64,000 bases of DNA from an uncultured Rivularia sp. (GTDB lineage Bacteria; Cyanobacteriota; Cyanobacteriia; Cyanobacteriales; Nostocaceae). Numbering within the stretch: the first letter of the stretch is position 1; each line of letters opens with the position of its first letter. The translations under genes were made by a program, and so were the position numbers. Below the pieces are notes generated by a model that saw nothing but the letters and a program-made list of their open reading frames with translations, did no database searches and was not told where the DNA came from. Below are positions 18,346-51,669 of the stretch, one piece after another. The stretch is taken from positions 3,808,001 to 3,872,000 of the forward strand of contig OY762007.1 in the NCBI GenBank assembly GCA_963665115.1, read 5' to 3'.

Positions 18346-19491
18346 TCACATACCTTGGGGATACATTCGCTTAATATACTTACCTATAACAGGCTGCAAA
18401 GTAAAAAATGTCCCAGCCGTTTGGGTAATCTTCTCAATCAGCGATCGCCATCCCAGAGATTGCATGGCTTTGATTATTTCTGACTTTGGTACTGTTACAG
18501 AAAGGTTATTCTGTAATTCTACATATGATATTGGCTCGCCATAACTTGCCATTTCATACATAATCCTTTTTTCTAAATCATCCAAACGTATAAACTGTTG
18601 CTCTAATATTTGCAAAAACTTATCGCCGATAACTATAGTATTTTCTTTTAAATATTCCTTAACATTACCTGCAAATACTTCTTTAATAGTAGTAGAAATC
18701 ATTTTCAGTGCTAAAGGATTTCCACCATACATTTGAATTAATTCCTGCCAACTTTCTTCTTGATACAATAATTTTTTTTCCTGGAAAATTTGGTTTGCTG
18801 CTTCCCCCAAACCTGCGATCAATAGCGAGCGAACTCTGAGTGTCTCGTCTTCAAGCAAGGCAACTTCGTGTGGTTTTTCTCGACCAATTAACACTAAGCA
18901 ACTTTGCAATTCCCGTGTTTCTCCAACTTGTCTAATTAAATCTTTATAGCCTTCGTATCCAGAACTAAAATGTCCCGCAAAATTACCGCTGCACAGAATA
19001 GCATCTACTCGATCTAATATCACTAAACAGCGATGCTGGCATAAAAAGTTAATTAATTGTGATACATCTACATGAGTTTGTTGCTCTGGAGTTAATGCTG
19101 AGATTAAGTTAGTTAAAACAGATTCATAAGGTGGAGCATCTCGAAGACTGCGCCAAATAAAATAATCAAAATTCCCTTGAATTTGTTCTACTAACTTGAC
19201 TGAAGTAGCAGTTTTACCAATTCCTCCCATACCTAATAGCGTTACCACGCGGCAGCAATCGTGCAAAATCCATTGTTCTAAAGTTGCAAGTTCTTGAATA
19301 CGTCCGTAGAAAACTCCCACATCAGGAGCCTCACCCCAATCTTTGATTGCATTCGGCTGTGAAAACTGAAAATTTGTGGTGTTATTTACAGTTTCCGAAT
19401 CAGCAATTTCCTTCCATTCCACACCCACAACTCGACAAATATTGATAAAGGTAGTTGTGATAGCGGCGATGCAGGAGGTGATTGTTAACAA
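18346..19491 (-). CDS. NB-ARC (STAND) ATPase with winged-helix end and no C-terminal repeats; 5' end probably truncated
   Basis: DWGEAPDVGVFYGRIQEL, Walker A GMGGIGKT, IWRSLRDAPP, CLVILD, GGNPLALK, FTLQPVI near the stop. Confidence 0.85.
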   Translation of the reverse strand: MLTITSCIAAITTTFINICRVVGVEWKEIADSETVNNTTNFQFSQPNAIKDWGEAPDVGVFYGRIQELATLEQWILHDCCRVVTLLGMGGIGKTATSVKLVEQIQGNFDYFIWRSLRDAPPYESVLTNLISALTPEQQTHVDVSQLINFLCQHRCLVILDRVDAILCSGNFAGHFSSGYEGYKDLIRQVGETRELQSCLVLIGREKPHEVALLEDETLRVRSLLIAGLGEAANQIFQEKKLLYQEESWQELIQMYGGNPLALKMISTTIKEVFAGNVKEYLKENTIVIGDKFLQILEQQFIRLDDLEKRIMYEMASYGEPISYVELQNNLSVTVPKSEIIKAMQSLGWRSLIEKITQTAGTFFTLQPVIGKYIKRMYPQGM

Positions 19492-19720
19492 GCTTTAGGA
19501 AAAAATCGCTATTTCCCCATAGAAATTTCAAAAAATGTTAAATTATCGGGATTATTAGTACTCAATCTCATGGTATAAGTATAATTAAGAACGATAATTT
19601 CCTGATTATTACAGATAAATTTTAAGCGGGATATATTCCATACCAACATCGTCGCAACAATTAAGATAAATTAAATACTGGCTCGCGGCATCGATTGGAG
19701 TATTCCCTCGTTTAAAGCAG

Positions 19721-44240: not shown

Positions 44241-45962
44241 CTAATAATGGTTTCCAACTTTTCTGTGATGCACGGCGGTTAAGGCATCGGGTTTGCTGAC
44301 TTTACCTGCGTACACTGTGCTGTATACAATCCAATGATCTCCAGCGTCCATTCTGCTGGCAACTTCACACTCTACATATGACAATGCATCAGTTAATATT
44401 GGCGCACCGTTTTCGGCTGGTTGGGTTTTCACTCCTTCAAAGCGATCTGCACCAGGGCGGAATCGCTTAAGAAAGTGTTTCATCAACTTTTGATAATTGC
44501 CTTCTTCGAGAGTATTTAAAACGAATTTATCGCCAACCTGCATCAAGGATTCAATTGCTCTATCTTTTGCGACTGCAATTGTTAATCCCAAAGGTTTAAA
44601 ACTAGCTTGATTTACCCAGGATGCTAACATCGCACTTTTCACGTCACCTTGTTGAGCGGTAATAATATACAATCCACCACTCAATCTTCCCAAAGCTTTA
44701 TCCAAGTCAGCATCAAGAGACTTCATGTTTTTGATGCTTTTAGCGCGGTTTAATAATTGCCCTAAGTCAGTTCCCGCTTCTTCGCACTGTTTATAAGTAT
44801 TCTCGGTGGGAGTTTCTTTAATTTTGATTGCACCGAAGGCTGGTTTTAAACCCAATTCGCGGAATTTAGTCAAAACTGGATCGATTGGTTCATCATCACC
44901 ACCACCAGTTTCAAATAATCCTACTGCTTGCTTGTCATGTACCGAACCTAAAATAGTACTGAAAGCAGTTTGCAACTTTTGATCGGATGCTGGTGGCATT
45001 CCTAATATTATTCCAGTAAACCGGCTTGCTTGCTCTCTTAATTCCTGTAAGTCAATTTCTTCGCTTAAATCAACCATTTCTACAGCGACTTCGGTTTTGG
45101 AAACACCGCTAGCAACTGCTTGAGCAAGTTTATTACTATCACCGTATTTGGAAACGTAGAAAATACCAACGATTTTCTCAGCCTTGGCTTTGTTTTTACT
45201 CCAATTGCGATATCTTCCGATTAACTCATCTACATTATGAGATAAAAGTGGGCCATGTCCGGTTGCTACCATGCCCACGGTTTCCAATTCACCCATGCGT
45301 TTGAGAGCAGACATTACAGAGCGGGCATTTGGAGCCATCAAACATTCGTAATAATATTTGTATTCGGCACTAATGGCGTTTAAATCTTCGTCAAAAGTGG
45401 CATCCGAACAATAATGCATCCCAAAAGCATCGCAGGTGAAAAGTATTTGGGTTTTGTGGTCGTATGTGAAAATGGTATCGGGCCAGTGTAGGTTAGGAGC
45501 AATAACAAATTCAAGCTCGTGCCCGTTTCCTAAATCAAGGCGATCGCTGTTCTTTACAACTTGATTTTTAAAAGGTTGGTGTACCAGATTTTCCAAAAAC
45601 TGAATCGCAACTTTGGAACCAACAACAGTAACTTCCGGCGCTAACTGTAAAAAATCTTTAACCAAACCGCTGTGATCGGGTTCGGTATGACTGATAATTA
45701 AATAATCGATTTCCGCTGGATTGACAAGTCCGTTAAGTGTGTCTAAGTAGAGCTTGCGGAACTTTTCGTGAGAAGTATCAACTAAAGCAGTCTTTTCGCC
45801 GCGAATGATAAACGAGTTATAGGTGGTGCCATTTTCCAAACCAAACTCGATATCAAATCTATCTCGATCCCAATCCAGAGAGCGAATTGCTGTTGTATCT
45901 TCAGCAATCTCAGCAGTCTGCATGGTGAGTTTTTTCGCTACTTTATCGGTAACTGCTACCAT
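44241..45962 (-). CDS. flv3: flavodiiron protein Flv3 (Flv3A-like)
   Basis: Canonical SHTEPDHSG, LHWPD, CDAFGMH; RDRFDIEFGL. Confidence 0.92.
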   Translation of the reverse strand: MVAVTDKVAKKLTMQTAEIAEDTTAIRSLDWDRDRFDIEFGLENGTTYNSFIIRGEKTALVDTSHEKFRKLYLDTLNGLVNPAEIDYLIISHTEPDHSGLVKDFLQLAPEVTVVGSKVAIQFLENLVHQPFKNQVVKNSDRLDLGNGHELEFVIAPNLHWPDTIFTYDHKTQILFTCDAFGMHYCSDATFDEDLNAISAEYKYYYECLMAPNARSVMSALKRMGELETVGMVATGHGPLLSHNVDELIGRYRNWSKNKAKAEKIVGIFYVSKYGDSNKLAQAVASGVSKTEVAVEMVDLSEEIDLQELREQASRFTGIILGMPPASDQKLQTAFSTILGSVHDKQAVGLFETGGGDDEPIDPVLTKFRELGLKPAFGAIKIKETPTENTYKQCEEAGTDLGQLLNRAKSIKNMKSLDADLDKALGRLSGGLYIITAQQGDVKSAMLASWVNQASFKPLGLTIAVAKDRAIESLMQVGDKFVLNTLEEGNYQKLMKHFLKRFRPGADRFEGVKTQPAENGAPILTDALSYVECEVASRMDAGDHWIVYSTVYAGKVSKPDALTAVHHRKVGNHY

Positions 45963-46314: not shown

Positions 46315-46677
46315 CTAATATGGAAATAATGGTTCTATATCGTACTTTATTGATAAATCTTTAAAAGTCTTCCTGACTCTATCTACAACAACAGCTTCAT
46401 CTTCCAAAATTAGAGTTTTATCTTCTTGAATCATTTTTCTTGCTTGTAAAAAATTGATATTTGCTGCTTCAGCTAAAGCTTTGATGTGCTGTTTATTTTG
46501 AGAATCGGCTGAAAGCAAATAAATTTTGTATTTAGTTTTATCCTGCCTAATTTCTGGAATATAGGTCGTGACAATAACCCATTTATCGCATTGATTGCAG
46601 AATAAACCTTGAGTACTACCTTTAATTCTATGTTCGAGATTAGTTGCACAATGTTGGCATTTATTAATTTCAATCAT
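46315..46677 (-). CDS. hypothetical protein with N-terminal zinc ribbon
   Basis: 120 aa; CQHC...CNQC; ATG start; same strand as the HEAT genes. Confidence 0.75.
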   Translation of the reverse strand: MIEINKCQHCATNLEHRIKGSTQGLFCNQCDKWVIVTTYIPEIRQDKTKYKIYLLSADSQNKQHIKALAEAANINFLQARKMIQEDKTLILEDEAVVVDRVRKTFKDLSIKYDIEPLFPY

Positions 46678-46694
46678 TATTTTTTTAAAAGAAT

Positions 46695-46748
46695 AAAAAC
46701 CTTACTAGACACGGAGAGCGCAGAGGGAAGAGGTTATAGAGAGATAGT
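46695..46748. repeat. 54-bp direct repeat, left copy
   Basis: 48/54 identical to 50861-50914. Confidence 0.9.
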
Positions 46749-46754
46749 AATTAA

Positions 46755-48740
46755 TTAGATAAATTCGGGATTATAAAGTTGATGTCGTTGTTGAATTTCT
46801 TCAATTGCATCACAAAATATAGCTTTATCTCTAGCTTTGATTTGAATGTTCCACAACTGCGGAACAATTTTCAAACTTCCAAACCTGAACAATGTCAAAG
46901 TAGCGAAACTATCCAAACAGGTATCCGTTGGTAAAGGTTCTAAAATCGCCTCTATTGCACAATCGCTACCAATTTTTCCCAGAGCTTCAACGATTGTGTC
47001 TAAAACTGGGTCAAAAGCACAACCACCGCTAGGGTTTAATAAAGCTTGCCGCAACGCGACTACAGATTTTTCTCCACCTATCACACCTAAAGCATAAGCA
47101 GCTTTATCGCAAACTATATAATCTTCGTCTTTCAATAAAACATCAATTATTGCAACTTCGGCTGATTCACCACCGATATTCTGTAAAGCACGAATTGCAT
47201 TTACCCTAGCACTAGGGTTTTTTTCATCTTTGAGAATTTCGATGATTGTTGGAATAACTATCGAATTTCGAGTTTCTCCCAATCCAAGAATCAAAATTTT
47301 CCTAGCACTAGAGTTTTGTTCATCAGCAAGCATTTTCGTTAAATGGGGAATTACAGATTCGTCACCAAGTTTTGCTAAAGCACGAGCAGCGTTTACTCTA
47401 GCACTAGGGTTTTCGTCTTGTAATAGTGGAAATAGTTTCTTAGCAGCATCTTGATATCCGATAATTCCTAATAACCTTGCTGCACAAGCTCTTACTTCTG
47501 GATTATGATGCTGTAATGCTTTAATTAATTGAGGTGCAATTGATTCATCGGCAATTCTTTCCAAAACTAAAACTACTCTCCGACGTACTTCCTCATCTTC
47601 GTCACAGAGAGTTTTCGAGATTGCGATCGCGATATGGTTAATTTCGTTTTCTGTAAATTTATTGACGGTTTCTTCTACTTCATCCGATGGTGAAATAATT
47701 TGTCCTACTGCAAAAACAGCTTCCTCTCTAACTCGAACATCTTCATCCTGCAACAGTGGAAGTAAAGCTGATAAAGTATGCTGGTCGCGGATATTTTTCA
47801 ATCCATAAACAGCAGCTTGACGTACATTAGCGTGATCATGGTTTAAAAATGAAAACAAAATACTAATTCCTCTTTCATTTCCAATTTCAACCAACCCAGC
47901 AGCACAGCTTTTACTAATCCATTCATCTTCATCAAGTAAAAAATGAATTAACGCTTCTACCGCGACTTCTCCACCAATTTTTCCCAAAGCACGAGCAGCA
48001 TCTTGAGCAATCAATTTTTTTTCATCAGCTAAAGCAGTAATTAAGACTTCTAAACCTAAATCCGAAGCAATTTCTGCTAAACCATAAATTGCTGTGCTGC
48101 AAATTTCTTCATCTTCATCCTTTGATGCTTCAATTAATGCAGTTATAGCAACTTCACTATGAATATTTCTCAAAGCTATGACAGCATTTTCTCGAACAGA
48201 TTTACGCTCATCTGATAAAGCTGTAATTAACAACTTTGTCGCCGATTCTCCACCAAATCTTCCTAGAACATCAGCCGTTTGTGTACTTAAACTTTCATAA
48301 TGGTAAGCTTGATGAAATAATTCCTCTTCTGGAGCTTCTTCAATTTCACCTTTAAAATATAAATCTATCTCAAGTCTCGCACGAATCAATTCTTTTTCCT
48401 GGTTTAACATTCTTGTTAAAAAAGGAATCGCAAATTCAGACTTTGTTCTACCTAATAACTCAACTTTCAAATTATTCAGTATTTGTAAATTCTCAATCCA
48501 ACCCACAGTTTCTTTTTCTAATTTTTGTTTAACTTTACCAGCTAAAAAAGCACCCAATATTAAATCAATATCTAAAGCCAACTCTACTACCCGTAAAGCT
48601 TCTGAATCATCAATTAGTGGTAATATTGAAGCGATAGATTCCGTCCACTCAAGATGATTGAGATAATCTCTTTGAAATTGCTCATCACTTAATTGTGAAA
48701 TTTGAGAAATAAGAGATTGATTATTTTTATTTGACTGCAT
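46755..48740 (-). CDS. HEAT (PBS lyase-like) repeat protein
   Basis: Repeated VR..AA.ALG.IG...A...L...L.DE units. Confidence 0.9.
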   Translation of the reverse strand: MQSNKNNQSLISQISQLSDEQFQRDYLNHLEWTESIASILPLIDDSEALRVVELALDIDLILGAFLAGKVKQKLEKETVGWIENLQILNNLKVELLGRTKSEFAIPFLTRMLNQEKELIRARLEIDLYFKGEIEEAPEEELFHQAYHYESLSTQTADVLGRFGGESATKLLITALSDERKSVRENAVIALRNIHSEVAITALIEASKDEDEEICSTAIYGLAEIASDLGLEVLITALADEKKLIAQDAARALGKIGGEVAVEALIHFLLDEDEWISKSCAAGLVEIGNERGISILFSFLNHDHANVRQAAVYGLKNIRDQHTLSALLPLLQDEDVRVREEAVFAVGQIISPSDEVEETVNKFTENEINHIAIAISKTLCDEDEEVRRRVVLVLERIADESIAPQLIKALQHHNPEVRACAARLLGIIGYQDAAKKLFPLLQDENPSARVNAARALAKLGDESVIPHLTKMLADEQNSSARKILILGLGETRNSIVIPTIIEILKDEKNPSARVNAIRALQNIGGESAEVAIIDVLLKDEDYIVCDKAAYALGVIGGEKSVVALRQALLNPSGGCAFDPVLDTIVEALGKIGSDCAIEAILEPLPTDTCLDSFATLTLFRFGSLKIVPQLWNIQIKARDKAIFCDAIEEIQQRHQLYNPEFI

Positions 48741-48755
48741 TTTTTAAGAGAATAA

Positions 48756-50735
48756 TTAACAAAACTCTGGATTATAAAGTTGATGTTGCTGTTGGATTTT
48801 TTCGATAGCAGAATACAAGTTATTCGTAGCAGAAGCAATTTCAATATATCTAGCAGTTAATAATGCTTTCCACAGAAGAGGAATATGTTCTAGTTTTCCA
48901 TCTTCCATCAATATTTCTGCAGCTACTTTATCAACAAGATAATTATTATGAGGTAATGATATTAAAATTGCTTCTATTGCTTGCTCGCTACCATTTTTTT
49001 CTAAAGCTAAAATAGCCATTTGTCTAACGTTAAAATTTTTATCTTCTAATAGCTTAATTAGTACAGGAAGCGTAGAATTATCTGGAATCAAACTTAATGC
49101 ATAAGCTGCTGCTGCACGTACTCGATGATTTTCATCTTCTAAAGTTTTAATTAAAGCCGGAATAGTTGAATTATCTCCGATTTCTGCCAATAAATAAGCT
49201 GCTCTCTCCCGTACTTGATAATTTTTATCCTGTAATGCTTCAAGCAAAGTTGGAACTACAGATTTGTTTCCTATTTTTCCTAATACGATAGCTGCACTAA
49301 AGCGTACCTCTGGATGTTCGTCTTGTAATATCTTCAATAAAATAGGAATAATAGATTTGTCATTAATTCTTCCTAGATAAAAAGTTGCTAACTGACGTAT
49401 ATTATGATTTTCATATTGTAAAGCTGTAATCAAATCTTCTTTGGTCTTTTCGATATTTTCAGCTTTAGATATTTGAATTTCTATGGCTTTATTCGCTGCA
49501 CTACGGATATGATAGTTACAATCTTGAGACTTAATAAGCAAAGTAATTAAATCGGATTCATCAATAATTTCTTCAACATCTATTTTTGCTTCCCAATATA
49601 ATTCCTTATACTCATCCCTCAATGCTTCAAACTCTGATGATTCCATTCCGTTTTTAGGTACTGTTAACTCTTTAGCTGCTGTTCTACGAACTTTTGGATT
49701 TTCATCATTCAACAGATTAACGAACAAAGGTAAATTGGAAACCCTATCCGATTTTTTTACAATTGCTCCTAAAAATAAAGCAGCTTTTCTGCGGACTTCA
49801 GCATCATCAGATTGGGAAGCTAAGAATATGAATTGAATTCCTTTATTTTTGTCAATCTTCAATAAATTATCAAAGACATTTTTACTCATAAAATCTTCTT
49901 TATCTAAAAAAGCATGAATTATTAACTCTTCTGCTAACTCTCCACCAATTATTCTTAAAGCTTTAACAGTTTGAATTCTAACACTACGGTCTTCATCATC
50001 AATAAAATTAATTATTCTATTCAGTATAGACTTTCCACCAATCCGTCCTAAAATAGCAACAGCAATTCCACGAACAGCAGGAAATTCATCGTCTAAAGCT
50101 TCAATCATAATTTCCAACAATGAATCATCAGCAATTTTTCCTAAAGTTAAAATAGCTTTATAACGAATATGTATATCTTCATCTTTCAACAACTTTATAA
50201 GTATGGTGATTTCTGATTTATCAATATACTCTCCAAATACTACGATTGAAATCTTACGAACCCAATGATGTTCATCTTGTAATAATTTCAGCAGCATTCT
50301 TGTATATAATTCTGCATCAACAATTTCTAACTCTTCTATTGCTTGCGAAACAAGGTTTTCGTATAAATAAAATGAATGTGTTGTCTCAGGAATATTTTTG
50401 ATAAAATCTTCTAAAAAATAAACTGCTACTTTTGATTTCGTCTTCGTCAACAACTTTAATTTCAATTCGTCAGAAATTTCTAACTCACCAACCCAACGCA
50501 CAGTCTCTTCCTGCAACTCCGACTTAACTTTACCAGCCAAAAAAGCACCCAACATCAAATCAACATCCAAAGCTAAACATACCACCCGCAAAGCTTCTAA
50601 ATCATCAATTAACGGCAACATTGAAGCGATAGGTTGCGTCCATTCCAGATGATTGAGATAATTTCTTTTAAGCTGCTCATCACTTAATTGGGAAAGCTGG
50701 GAAATCAAAGATTGATAATTTTTTTCTAATTGCAT
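48756..50735 (-). CDS. HEAT (PBS lyase-like) repeat protein, paralog of 46755..48740
   Basis: HEAT repeats; very similar first ~100 aa and C-terminal IQQxHQLYNPEF. Confidence 0.9.
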   Translation of the reverse strand: MQLEKNYQSLISQLSQLSDEQLKRNYLNHLEWTQPIASMLPLIDDLEALRVVCLALDVDLMLGAFLAGKVKSELQEETVRWVGELEISDELKLKLLTKTKSKVAVYFLEDFIKNIPETTHSFYLYENLVSQAIEELEIVDAELYTRMLLKLLQDEHHWVRKISIVVFGEYIDKSEITILIKLLKDEDIHIRYKAILTLGKIADDSLLEIMIEALDDEFPAVRGIAVAILGRIGGKSILNRIINFIDDEDRSVRIQTVKALRIIGGELAEELIIHAFLDKEDFMSKNVFDNLLKIDKNKGIQFIFLASQSDDAEVRRKAALFLGAIVKKSDRVSNLPLFVNLLNDENPKVRRTAAKELTVPKNGMESSEFEALRDEYKELYWEAKIDVEEIIDESDLITLLIKSQDCNYHIRSAANKAIEIQISKAENIEKTKEDLITALQYENHNIRQLATFYLGRINDKSIIPILLKILQDEHPEVRFSAAIVLGKIGNKSVVPTLLEALQDKNYQVRERAAYLLAEIGDNSTIPALIKTLEDENHRVRAAAAYALSLIPDNSTLPVLIKLLEDKNFNVRQMAILALEKNGSEQAIEAILISLPHNNYLVDKVAAEILMEDGKLEHIPLLWKALLTARYIEIASATNNLYSAIEKIQQQHQLYNPEFC

Positions 50736-50860
50736 TTAAATAACGACATTAATATTGTCGCCACAAACCATAATATTATTATCTAATAACTAAACTGAGT
50801 GCGCCTACCTTTTCTTGGAAAAAGCTTCAGTTATTTGCAAAACTCTAATTACTGATTAAA

Positions 50861-50914
50861 AAAAACCTTACTAGACGCAGAGGGCACAGAGTGAAGAGGT
50901 TGTAGAGAGATAGT
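50861..50914. repeat. 54-bp direct repeat, right copy
   Basis: 48/54 identical to 46695-46748. Confidence 0.9.
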
Positions 50915-51669
50915 TGTTAATTCAAAAGTTTAAAAAAGTGTTATCTAATCCCCCAAAAACCTGGCTAGCATTAATAATCGGTAACTCACGCTTACACTGG
51001 GGCTTATTCACCGGAGAAAACCTCACAAAAGCTTGGGACACCAATTATTTATCTACCCCCTCTCCCCCTCTCCCCCTCTCCCCCTCTCCTCTCTTCATAG
51101 CTTCCGTAGTTCCTTCTCAAACAAAACTTTGGCAAAATTACCCAAATGCAAAATTTATCACCTTAAACGAAATCCCTCTCAACAACTTATATCCCACATT
51201 AGGAATCGATCGCGCCTTATCTTTACTTGGTGCTGGTGAAACTTGGGGTTTTCCCATGCTAGTAATTGATGCGGGAACTGCACTTACTTTTACAGGTGCC
51301 GATAATCACCGTAATTTAATTGGTGGCGCAATATTACCGGGATTGAGTTTACAATTTTCAACTCTTACCAATAAAACCGGGCAGTTACCAAACGTCGAAT
51401 TACCGCAACTGCTTCCAAAAAGATATGCAATCAATACTTCAGAAGCAATTCAAAGCGGAATTATTTACACGATACTCGCAGGAATCAAAGATTTTATTGC
51501 AGCATGGTTACAAGATTTTCCTGAAAGTAAAATTGCTATTACTGGCGGAGATAGAAATTTATTATTTAATCATCTAAAATCACAATATCCAAAAATATCA
51601 CAACGGATAATTGTAGAAAAAAATTTAGTTTTATGGGGAATACAAAAAACAGTCTCCCCATACATTTGA
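50914..51669 (+). CDS. coaX: type III pantothenate kinase
   Basis: [37 protein letters not shown]; true start may be GTG at 50938. Confidence 0.92.

What the first reader, a model, noticed from the sequence alone, without database searches (positions are those of the whole stretch)
46755..50735. Tandem HEAT-repeat paralogs resembling NTPase-less sensor cassettes of NACHT-HEAT (NLR-like) proteins
Seen: two ~660-aa genes 15 bp apart share a very similar first ~100 aa (LSDEQ.xR.YLNHLEWT..IAS.LPLIDD.EALRVV.LALD.DL.LGAFLAGKVK, also similar at DNA level) and a shared end (IQQxHQLYNPEF), while the HEAT arrays between are strongly diverged. Recalled knowledge, unverified: this N-terminal helical segment resembles the region right after the NACHT domain in cyanobacterial NACHT-HEAT proteins. 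Inference: these are stand-alone sensor modules with constant ends and variable middles. They could act in trans as decoys or co-sensors, or serve as a recombination reservoir for swapping specificity into a full-length NACHT gene elsewhere, analogous to orphan toxin-tip cassettes.
Basis: partly seen in the sequence, partly recalled or inferred. Interest (0 to 1): 0.72.

Follow-up and report, generated by a model that had tools for sequence, protein, structure and literature searches.

The report
Headless NLR-like HEAT sensor gene pair
These two neighbouring cyanobacterial genes encode the helical and HEAT-repeat back half of a NACHT (NLR-like) receptor without its ATPase or effector, a form kept in many cyanobacteria, and they likely work alone as strain-variable protein binders rather than as spare parts for the full receptor.

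Summary
Two intact HEAT-repeat genes (659 and 661 aa) share their first ~85 residues. That segment matches the helical domain right after the winged-helix motif of a NACHT-HEAT-caspase protein in this genome (44-45%). Such NTPase-less forms are widespread: 38 of 40 picked loci from 11 other families of the order. A second NACHT family has its own headless paralog cut at the same junction. The middles are two stable types, A and B (65-73% within type, ~30% between). The shared start is best explained by gene conversion between the paralogs, and A bodies show signs of exchange between strains. The reservoir idea fails: 59-61% DNA identity to the NACHT gene, and no NACHT-fused protein with either array (best under 39%). 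Docking on the parent NACHT is disfavoured: residues near-invariant in fused forms are lost in headless ones, and at least 25 genomes hold only the headless form. Best reading (0.45): stand-alone, ligand-binding sensor solenoids under conflict-type evolution. No function was tested, and six literature searches found no description of this form.

The parts
48756..50735 (-). Gene A, 659 aa: post-winged-helix helical domain + HEAT solenoid + C-terminal cap; no NTPase, no effector
   Evidence: model mean pLDDT 87.4, all-helical
46755..48740 (-). Gene B, 661 aa: same architecture, different HEAT type (~30% to A)
50421..50735 (-). A residues 1-105, homologous to the helical domain after the FRHQLLQEYYAAE motif of NACHT-HEAT proteins; helix 30-42 has lost fused-specific residues (H29, E31, Q34, S38; also F65, K69)
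48426..48740 (-). B residues 1-105, same domain
48759..48824 (-). C-terminal cap of A (IQQQHQLYNPEF), variant of the family cap; not matched by Pfam NCC-H
46758..46814 (-). C-terminal cap of B (IQQRHQLYNPEF)
46315..46677 (-). 120-aa Zn-ribbon-like ORF downstream of B; co-occurs with the pair in G019, absent at the site in G001, G007, G017, G021
46692..46756 (+). Copy of a 65-nt dispersed repeat at one end of the pair
   Evidence: 22 places in the genome at E<=1e-3
50858..50922 (+). Second copy of the same dispersed repeat at the other end (86% identical)
50914..51669 (+). Type III pantothenate kinase gene, conserved flank; begins 178 bp from A's start, leaving no room for a NACHT remnant
44241..45962 (-). 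Flavodiiron-type protein gene (name recalled from sequence), conserved flank on the other side

Best explanation
A and B are NACHT-HEAT receptor halves that begin right after the winged-helix motif and carry no NTPase or effector, and they likely act alone as HEAT solenoids that bind foreign or stress-related proteins, most likely trapping them or competing for the ligand rather than switching on a response themselves. Shown: the architecture, the breakpoint, wide occurrence, purifying selection, and loss of residues conserved in fused forms. Inferred: that the lost residues face the NTPase module, that the N-terminal domain now serves as the cap of the solenoid, and that the conserved 5' end and flanks act as recombination anchors for conversion between paralogs and exchange of A alleles between strains. 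Untested: expression, ligand, any role in defence.
For: Breakpoint and homology. Headless forms at 38 of 40 picked loci from 11 other families, some starting with winged-helix remnants such as MEFQHQQLQES. dN/dS 0.38 (A) and 0.36 (B), against 0.05 and 0.17 for two flanking genes. Patchy site: filled in 5 of 24 genus relatives, empty in 11, undecidable in 8. Allele exchange: G000/G001 dS is 0.13-0.18 in flanks but 0.46-0.79 in the A body; G007/G021 dS is 0.38-0.44 in flanks but 0.06-0.31 in the A body. In A, the helix positions that vary in alphaRep binders (positions recalled) have pN/pS 0.89 against 0.45 elsewhere. Fused-specific residues are lost while the core is kept: of 11 positions chosen on other headless forms, the A/B group lost 7 (against 2 of 38 other conserved positions) and a second genus lineage lost 8 (against 7 of 38). 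Recently broken fused genes keep 7.7 of 9.
Against: No ligand, expression or phenotype data. No position class exceeds pN/pS 1, and B shows no such contrast (0.50 against 0.44, one repeat anchor misplaced). Neighbours of the headless genes share no common gene set, and several lineages sit at fixed loci beside ordinary-looking genes (neighbours were clustered by BLAST, not scanned against defence libraries). PADLOC gives only generic HEAT hits. In this genome the two N-termini are the least alike of five pairs (76% aa, dS 0.71), so conversion is not recent here. That the lost residues touch the NTPase is inferred from conservation and helix periodicity, not from contacts.
Confidence: 0.45

Rival explanations
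1. The headless proteins were co-opted as ordinary HEAT scaffolds or chaperones for host proteins, unrelated to conflict.
For: Other headless lineages sit at stable loci across genera. The family-2 headless gene is in 9 of 10 genus genomes searched. One lineage carries a C-terminal dual-specificity-phosphatase-like domain (E 8e-5, below cut-off). The fold resembles general scaffolds (alphaRep, PP2A-A).
Against: A/B is patchy, broken in G019 and G011, reordered in G021, mosaic in G007 and P0009, and shows discordant dS. All phycobilin lyase and NblB models score far below cut-off (e.g. 105 against 300).
Confidence: 0.28
2. They regulate the full-length NACHT-HEAT protein in trans by docking their helical domain on its NTPase module, as co-sensor or inhibitor.
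For: The domain is homologous to the NACHT-adjacent domain. G000 and the five relatives with the cassette at this site also hold a fused family member, some truncated. In G016 a headless gene lies directly upstream of a NACHT gene.
Against: Near-invariant residues of fused forms are lost (K 96% to 24%, L 92% to 18%, R 87% to 21%; 126 fused against 33 headless). At least 25 of 50 hand-picked genomes have only headless matches. 22 of 24 genus genomes match the domain anyway, so co-occurrence says little.
Confidence: 0.15
3. They are a silent reservoir whose HEAT arrays recombine into a full-length NACHT gene, like orphan toxin-tip cassettes.
For: The junction is a real swap point: G004 L080 joins a family-2 NACHT (44%) to a family-1 helical/HEAT part (44%) there. 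Recombination among A/B copies is evident.
Against: DNA identity to the genome's NACHT gene is 59-61% with exact runs of 9-11 nt. No blastn hit outside the pair. The best identity of either array to 180 NACHT-bearing proteins is under 39%, and 30-35% for Pfam-NACHT-bearing hits in the B-body database search (proteins up to 1157 aa, 7992 candidates scored). The L080 chimera keeps the fused-type motif, so its donor was likely a fused gene. The pair lies 3.8 Mb from the NACHT gene.
Confidence: 0.06
4. They are decaying remnants of a NACHT gene with no function.
For: Broken copies in G019 and G011; higher dN/dS than flanks.
Against: Intact 618-661 aa frames in five genomes, dN/dS 0.36-0.38 at dS 0.4-0.5, helical core better kept than in fused forms (17.3 against 15.7-16.2 of 18).
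Confidence: 0.06

Closest known systems
Bacterial NACHT / NLR-related proteins with HEAT sensors (Kibby et al., bioRxiv 10.1101/2022.07.19.500537; passages read)
   Same: Same post-winged-helix domain, HEAT array and cap as cyanobacterial NACHT-HEAT proteins; the paper lists HEAT among antigen-receptor-type sensors and notes many paralogs in cyanobacteria.
   Different: A and B lack the P-loop NTPase, the winged helix and any effector. The passages read describe only NACHT-containing proteins.
Avs7 sensor shared with NTPase-less Dsr1 (PMC13581612; passages read)
   Same: A STAND sensor module reused without the NTPase.
   Different: There the sensor is fused to an effector (sirtuin, HEPN); here most headless forms end at the cap with no effector, and the sensor family differs.
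Orphan toxin-tip cassettes of polymorphic toxin systems (recalled; PMC3482391 seen only as a search listing)
   Same: Tandem copies with a shared 5' segment and different bodies.
   Different: No adjacent full-length gene, no DNA identity sufficient for exchange with it, intact starts and purifying selection.
PBS-lyase / NblB HEAT proteins and alphaRep binders
   Same: 31-residue PBS-HEAT repeats; best structural match is an artificial alphaRep (6fsq).
   Different: Scores far below the lyase and NblB cut-offs; the N-terminal domain derives from NACHT proteins.

Membership tests
Bacterial NACHT/STAND receptor | P-loop NTPase with Walker A/B | tested here: not met
   No NACHT/NB-ARC hit in A or B; no PF05729 match at this place; 178 bp to the next gene upstream
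Bacterial NACHT/STAND receptor | Winged-helix domain with conserved His motif | tested here: not met
   A and B start just after FxHQxxQEYY in alignment A1
Bacterial NACHT/STAND receptor | Helical domain plus repeat sensor after the NACHT module | tested here: met
   top 150 of 850 representatives all cover the winged-helix or helical part
Bacterial NACHT/STAND receptor | Effector domain | tested here: not met
   Proteins end at the cap; the genome's fused relative has a caspase after it
Bacterial NACHT/STAND receptor | Post-winged-helix domain structurally equal to HD2 of solved NLRs | tested here: inconclusive
   No STAND structure among matches; best Z 6.7 to generic helical domains
Bacterial NACHT/STAND receptor | Anti-phage activity | not testable with these tools
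   needs experiment
Orphan tip cassette / recombination reservoir | High DNA identity to the full-length gene at the junction | tested here: not met
   59-61%, exact runs 9-11 nt
Orphan tip cassette / recombination reservoir | Cassette body found fused to the full-length gene in some strain | tested here: not met
   under 39% to 180 NACHT-bearing proteins; database search for the B body only, up to 1157 aa
Phycobilin lyase CpcE/F/CpeY or NblB | NCBIfam equivalog cut-off | tested here: not met
   58-112 bits against cut-offs 220-600
NCC-H-bearing HEAT proteins (PF22730) | C-terminal NCC-H motif | tested here: not met
   No match at A or B; the Atlas lead (87% NCC-H cluster, score 0.91) was not borne out

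The most novel reading that the evidence does not exclude
Cyanobacteria repeatedly release the sensor half of their NLR-like receptors at the winged-helix junction, in at least two NACHT families, and keep these headless sensors as a separate arm of immunity: NTPase-free binders that neutralise phage proteins directly or soak up phage inhibitors and triggers, with specificity renewed by swapping whole repeat bodies behind a constant 5' anchor.
Probability: 0.25. Interest if true: 0.8.

Novelty: new variant of a known kind. Interest (0 to 1): 0.57.

Why it matters
Surveys of bacterial NLR-like proteins start from the NTPase, so they cannot see this class, and annotation calls its members HEAT or lyase proteins. 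The data point to a widespread NTPase-less derivative, cut at the same junction in two NACHT families and losing the same residues. It offers a direct test of whether a STAND sensor can protect or regulate without its switch, and a natural series of HEAT binders with exchangeable bodies.

Tried and rejected
Complex prediction of the genome's NACHT protein (residues 5-580) with A (1-350): no verdict, score 0.00; not used as evidence. Sequencing runs: no RNA holder listed; not used. Fold searches of the winged-helix plus helical model gave no clear match; no STAND structure was listed. Promoter and terminator scan was at chance level (20 against 19.5). The 65-nt direct repeat flanking the pair is a dispersed repeat (22 places), not a specific att site. 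NCC-H as the name of the cap was rejected. A single origin of family-1 headless forms was not formally rejected (AU p 0.059). The NACHT-type hit inside the window (18349-19494) did not match the family NACHT query and was set aside. Earlier findings by sequence and by words returned nothing.

Full report
Observation. The window holds two minus-strand genes, A (48756-50735, 659 aa) and B (46755-48740, 661 aa), 15 bp apart. Both are PBS-type HEAT arrays with no other Pfam domain. They share 70-85% of residues over the first 80 alignment columns and 78% of DNA over 287 nt, then fall to about a third, with a 49-nt match (84%) at the 3' end. A model of A is one confident all-helical solenoid (mean pLDDT 87.4) whose best matches are alphaRep and PP2A-A type scaffolds. 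The closest named relatives are annotated Rivularia sp. and Calothrix parasitica.

Origin of the N-terminus. The genome has one other match to the first 110 residues, at G000:46296-49820. It is a 1174-aa frame with Walker A (GRPGSGKS), the motif FRHQLLQEYYAAE, HEAT repeats and a caspase domain. A and B align from the residues just after that motif at 44-45% identity. This protein itself was not among the 16 Pfam NACHT matches in the genome, but three relatives pass the NACHT cut-off. A profile of the winged helix plus helical domain finds 850 clusters at 50% identity; the 150 listed nearly all include the winged-helix part. I call the segment the post-winged-helix helical domain; equivalence to HD2 of solved NLRs is recalled and was not shown by fold searches.

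The headless form is common. The profile matches 163 of 401 genomes of the order; only 150 of 245 matches were listed. I picked 40 matches that lacked the winged-helix part and fetched their loci. In 38 the domain lies at the start of the frame with no NACHT hit in the locus; one had a NACHT in an overlapping frame and one a winged-helix remnant near a contig end. The 38 come from 11 families besides the window's own. Several begin with worn winged-helix text (MEFQHQQLQES, MELHHQPIQESY), which points to truncation of a fused ancestor. Of 50 hand-picked genomes, chosen mostly for weak best hits and so biased, at least 25 have only headless matches with a gene checked; other NACHT families may still be present in them. 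Neighbours share no common gene set. A tree of 248 rows on 96 columns needs 6 changes between fused and headless, 3 forced by starred branches; two of the scattered rows are broken genes, and 10 rows were left out as broken, partial or duplicate. A second headless lineage in the genus (7 rows) nests with the NACHT-HEAT-caspase relatives (97/98 support, 4 of the 7 included), although one origin of all headless rows is not formally rejected (AU p 0.059). Independently, a different NACHT family (G000:902516-905467, 24% to the first) has a paralog at G000:5114174-5116093 that starts at the same junction. It is present in 9 of 10 genus genomes searched, and similar headless-type matches appear in three genomes of other genera, not checked further.

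What the constant start means. The pair sits between the pantothenate kinase and flavodiiron genes. Of 24 genus relatives, 5 carry one or two copies there, 11 have a gap of 0.2-1.1 kb (empty), and 8 cannot be judged. The bodies form two types, each with full support (65-73% within, 28-33% between). The first 82 residues do not sort by type. In 4 of 5 pairs each copy is closest to its own partner (84-95%, one tie); two of these pairs were assigned by equal contig length. In G017 and G021 the two copies also share about 150-190 bp of upstream DNA. That pattern indicates gene conversion of promoter and 5' end. This genome's pair is the exception (76%, rank 14 of 15). Mosaics exist: P0009 has an A front and B back, G007 has a B-like patch near its end, and G021 has the order reversed. 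Synonymous distances in the A body disagree with the flanks in both directions (G000/G001 0.46-0.79 against 0.13-0.18; G007/G021 0.06-0.31 against 0.38-0.44), as expected for alleles exchanged between strains. dN/dS is 0.38 and 0.36, so the genes are under purifying selection, weaker than the flanks (0.05, 0.17). G019 and G011 carry broken copies.

Loss of the presumed NTPase-facing surface. Among 126 fused and 33 headless non-redundant rows, the core of the domain is equally conserved, but Y, K, W, E, L, M, L of the helix YLKWTExxALMLxL and the R of GARLAG drop from 76-99% to 18-48%. Their spacing fits one helix face (helix 30-42 of A). To limit circularity I chose positions on headless forms outside the genus: 11 of 49 conserved positions. 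The A/B group lost 7 of the 11 and 2 of the other 38; the second lineage lost 8 of 11 and 7 of 38 (Fisher p 1e-4 and 1e-3). A/B may share ancestry with the training set; the second lineage likely does not. Recently broken fused genes keep 7.7 of 9 such residues, and a fused protein with no Walker A has the eroded motif (L075). That these residues contact the NTPase module is inference.

Mechanism. A reservoir role is unlikely: 59-61% DNA identity to the NACHT gene, no fused protein above 39% to either body among 180 held, and none close to the B body in a database search limited to 1157 aa. The junction is a swap point in nature (L080), but that chimera has the fused-type motif. Docking on the parent is disfavoured by the eroded surface and by genomes lacking a fused member. 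What remains is a capped HEAT solenoid acting alone. Patchy presence, allele exchange and relaxed surface positions in A (pN/pS 0.89 against 0.45; B 0.50 against 0.44) favour a conflict-type binder (0.45) over a housekeeping scaffold (0.28). No ligand, expression or phenotype was obtained.

Literature. Six searches listed no paper on NTPase-less derivatives of cyanobacterial NACHT-HEAT proteins. I read passages of the Kibby preprint, PMC13581612, PMC7159879 and PMC2853523; other papers were seen as listings only. The preprint's supplementary tables were not seen and may bear on the clade and on domain names. Most subscription journals are not searched. One earlier AI note on this genome describes another NTPase-less repeat sensor; I did not check it and do not count it as support.

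Verdict. A real, previously unremarked (in these searches) variant of bacterial NLR-like proteins, with a firm evolutionary account and an untested function.

Noticed in passing
G000:C1:5114174-5116093 (L157:4175-6094): NTPase-less paralog of a second NACHT family (ends in NCC-H), starting at the same winged-helix junction; followed by a short duplicated 3' fragment and small genes that look like a toxin-antitoxin pair (recalled resemblance).
   Followed up: partly
L080:4360-6378 (G004): Natural chimera: family-2 NACHT joined at the winged-helix junction to a family-1 helical/HEAT part.
   Followed up: partly
L143:4392-6314 and relatives L138, L139, L142, L144, L152-L155: Headless lineage with a shared C-terminal domain; in L143 it weakly matches dual-specificity phosphatases (E 8e-5, below cut-off).
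   Followed up: partly
L043 (G016) 1143-2909; also L040, L046, L050, L055, L066, L085: Second headless lineage of ~590-620 aa in the genus; in G016 directly upstream of a NACHT gene, in G015 and G018 beside the gene that flanks the NACHT-HEAT-caspase locus in G000.
   Followed up: yes
window 46315-46677: 120-aa Zn-ribbon-like protein with look-alikes in unnamed clusters from other phyla (score 0.95) and a weak L7/L12 C-terminal lead (0.86).
   Followed up: partly
window 46692-46756 and 50858-50922: 65-nt dispersed repeat with 22 places in the genome; related genomes carry other palindromic repeats upstream of A/B.
   Followed up: partly
window 18349-19494: 382-aa NTPase-only frame (Pfam NACHT 27 bits) followed by a separate kinase/WD40-like frame; different family.
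   Followed up: no
L075:244-3822 (G035): Fused family member with a degenerate Walker A and an eroded helix motif like the headless forms.
   Followed up: partly
L034:9413-10543 (G019): A TnpB-like insertion (recalled resemblance) truncates the B gene; the A gene there is frameshifted.
   Followed up: no
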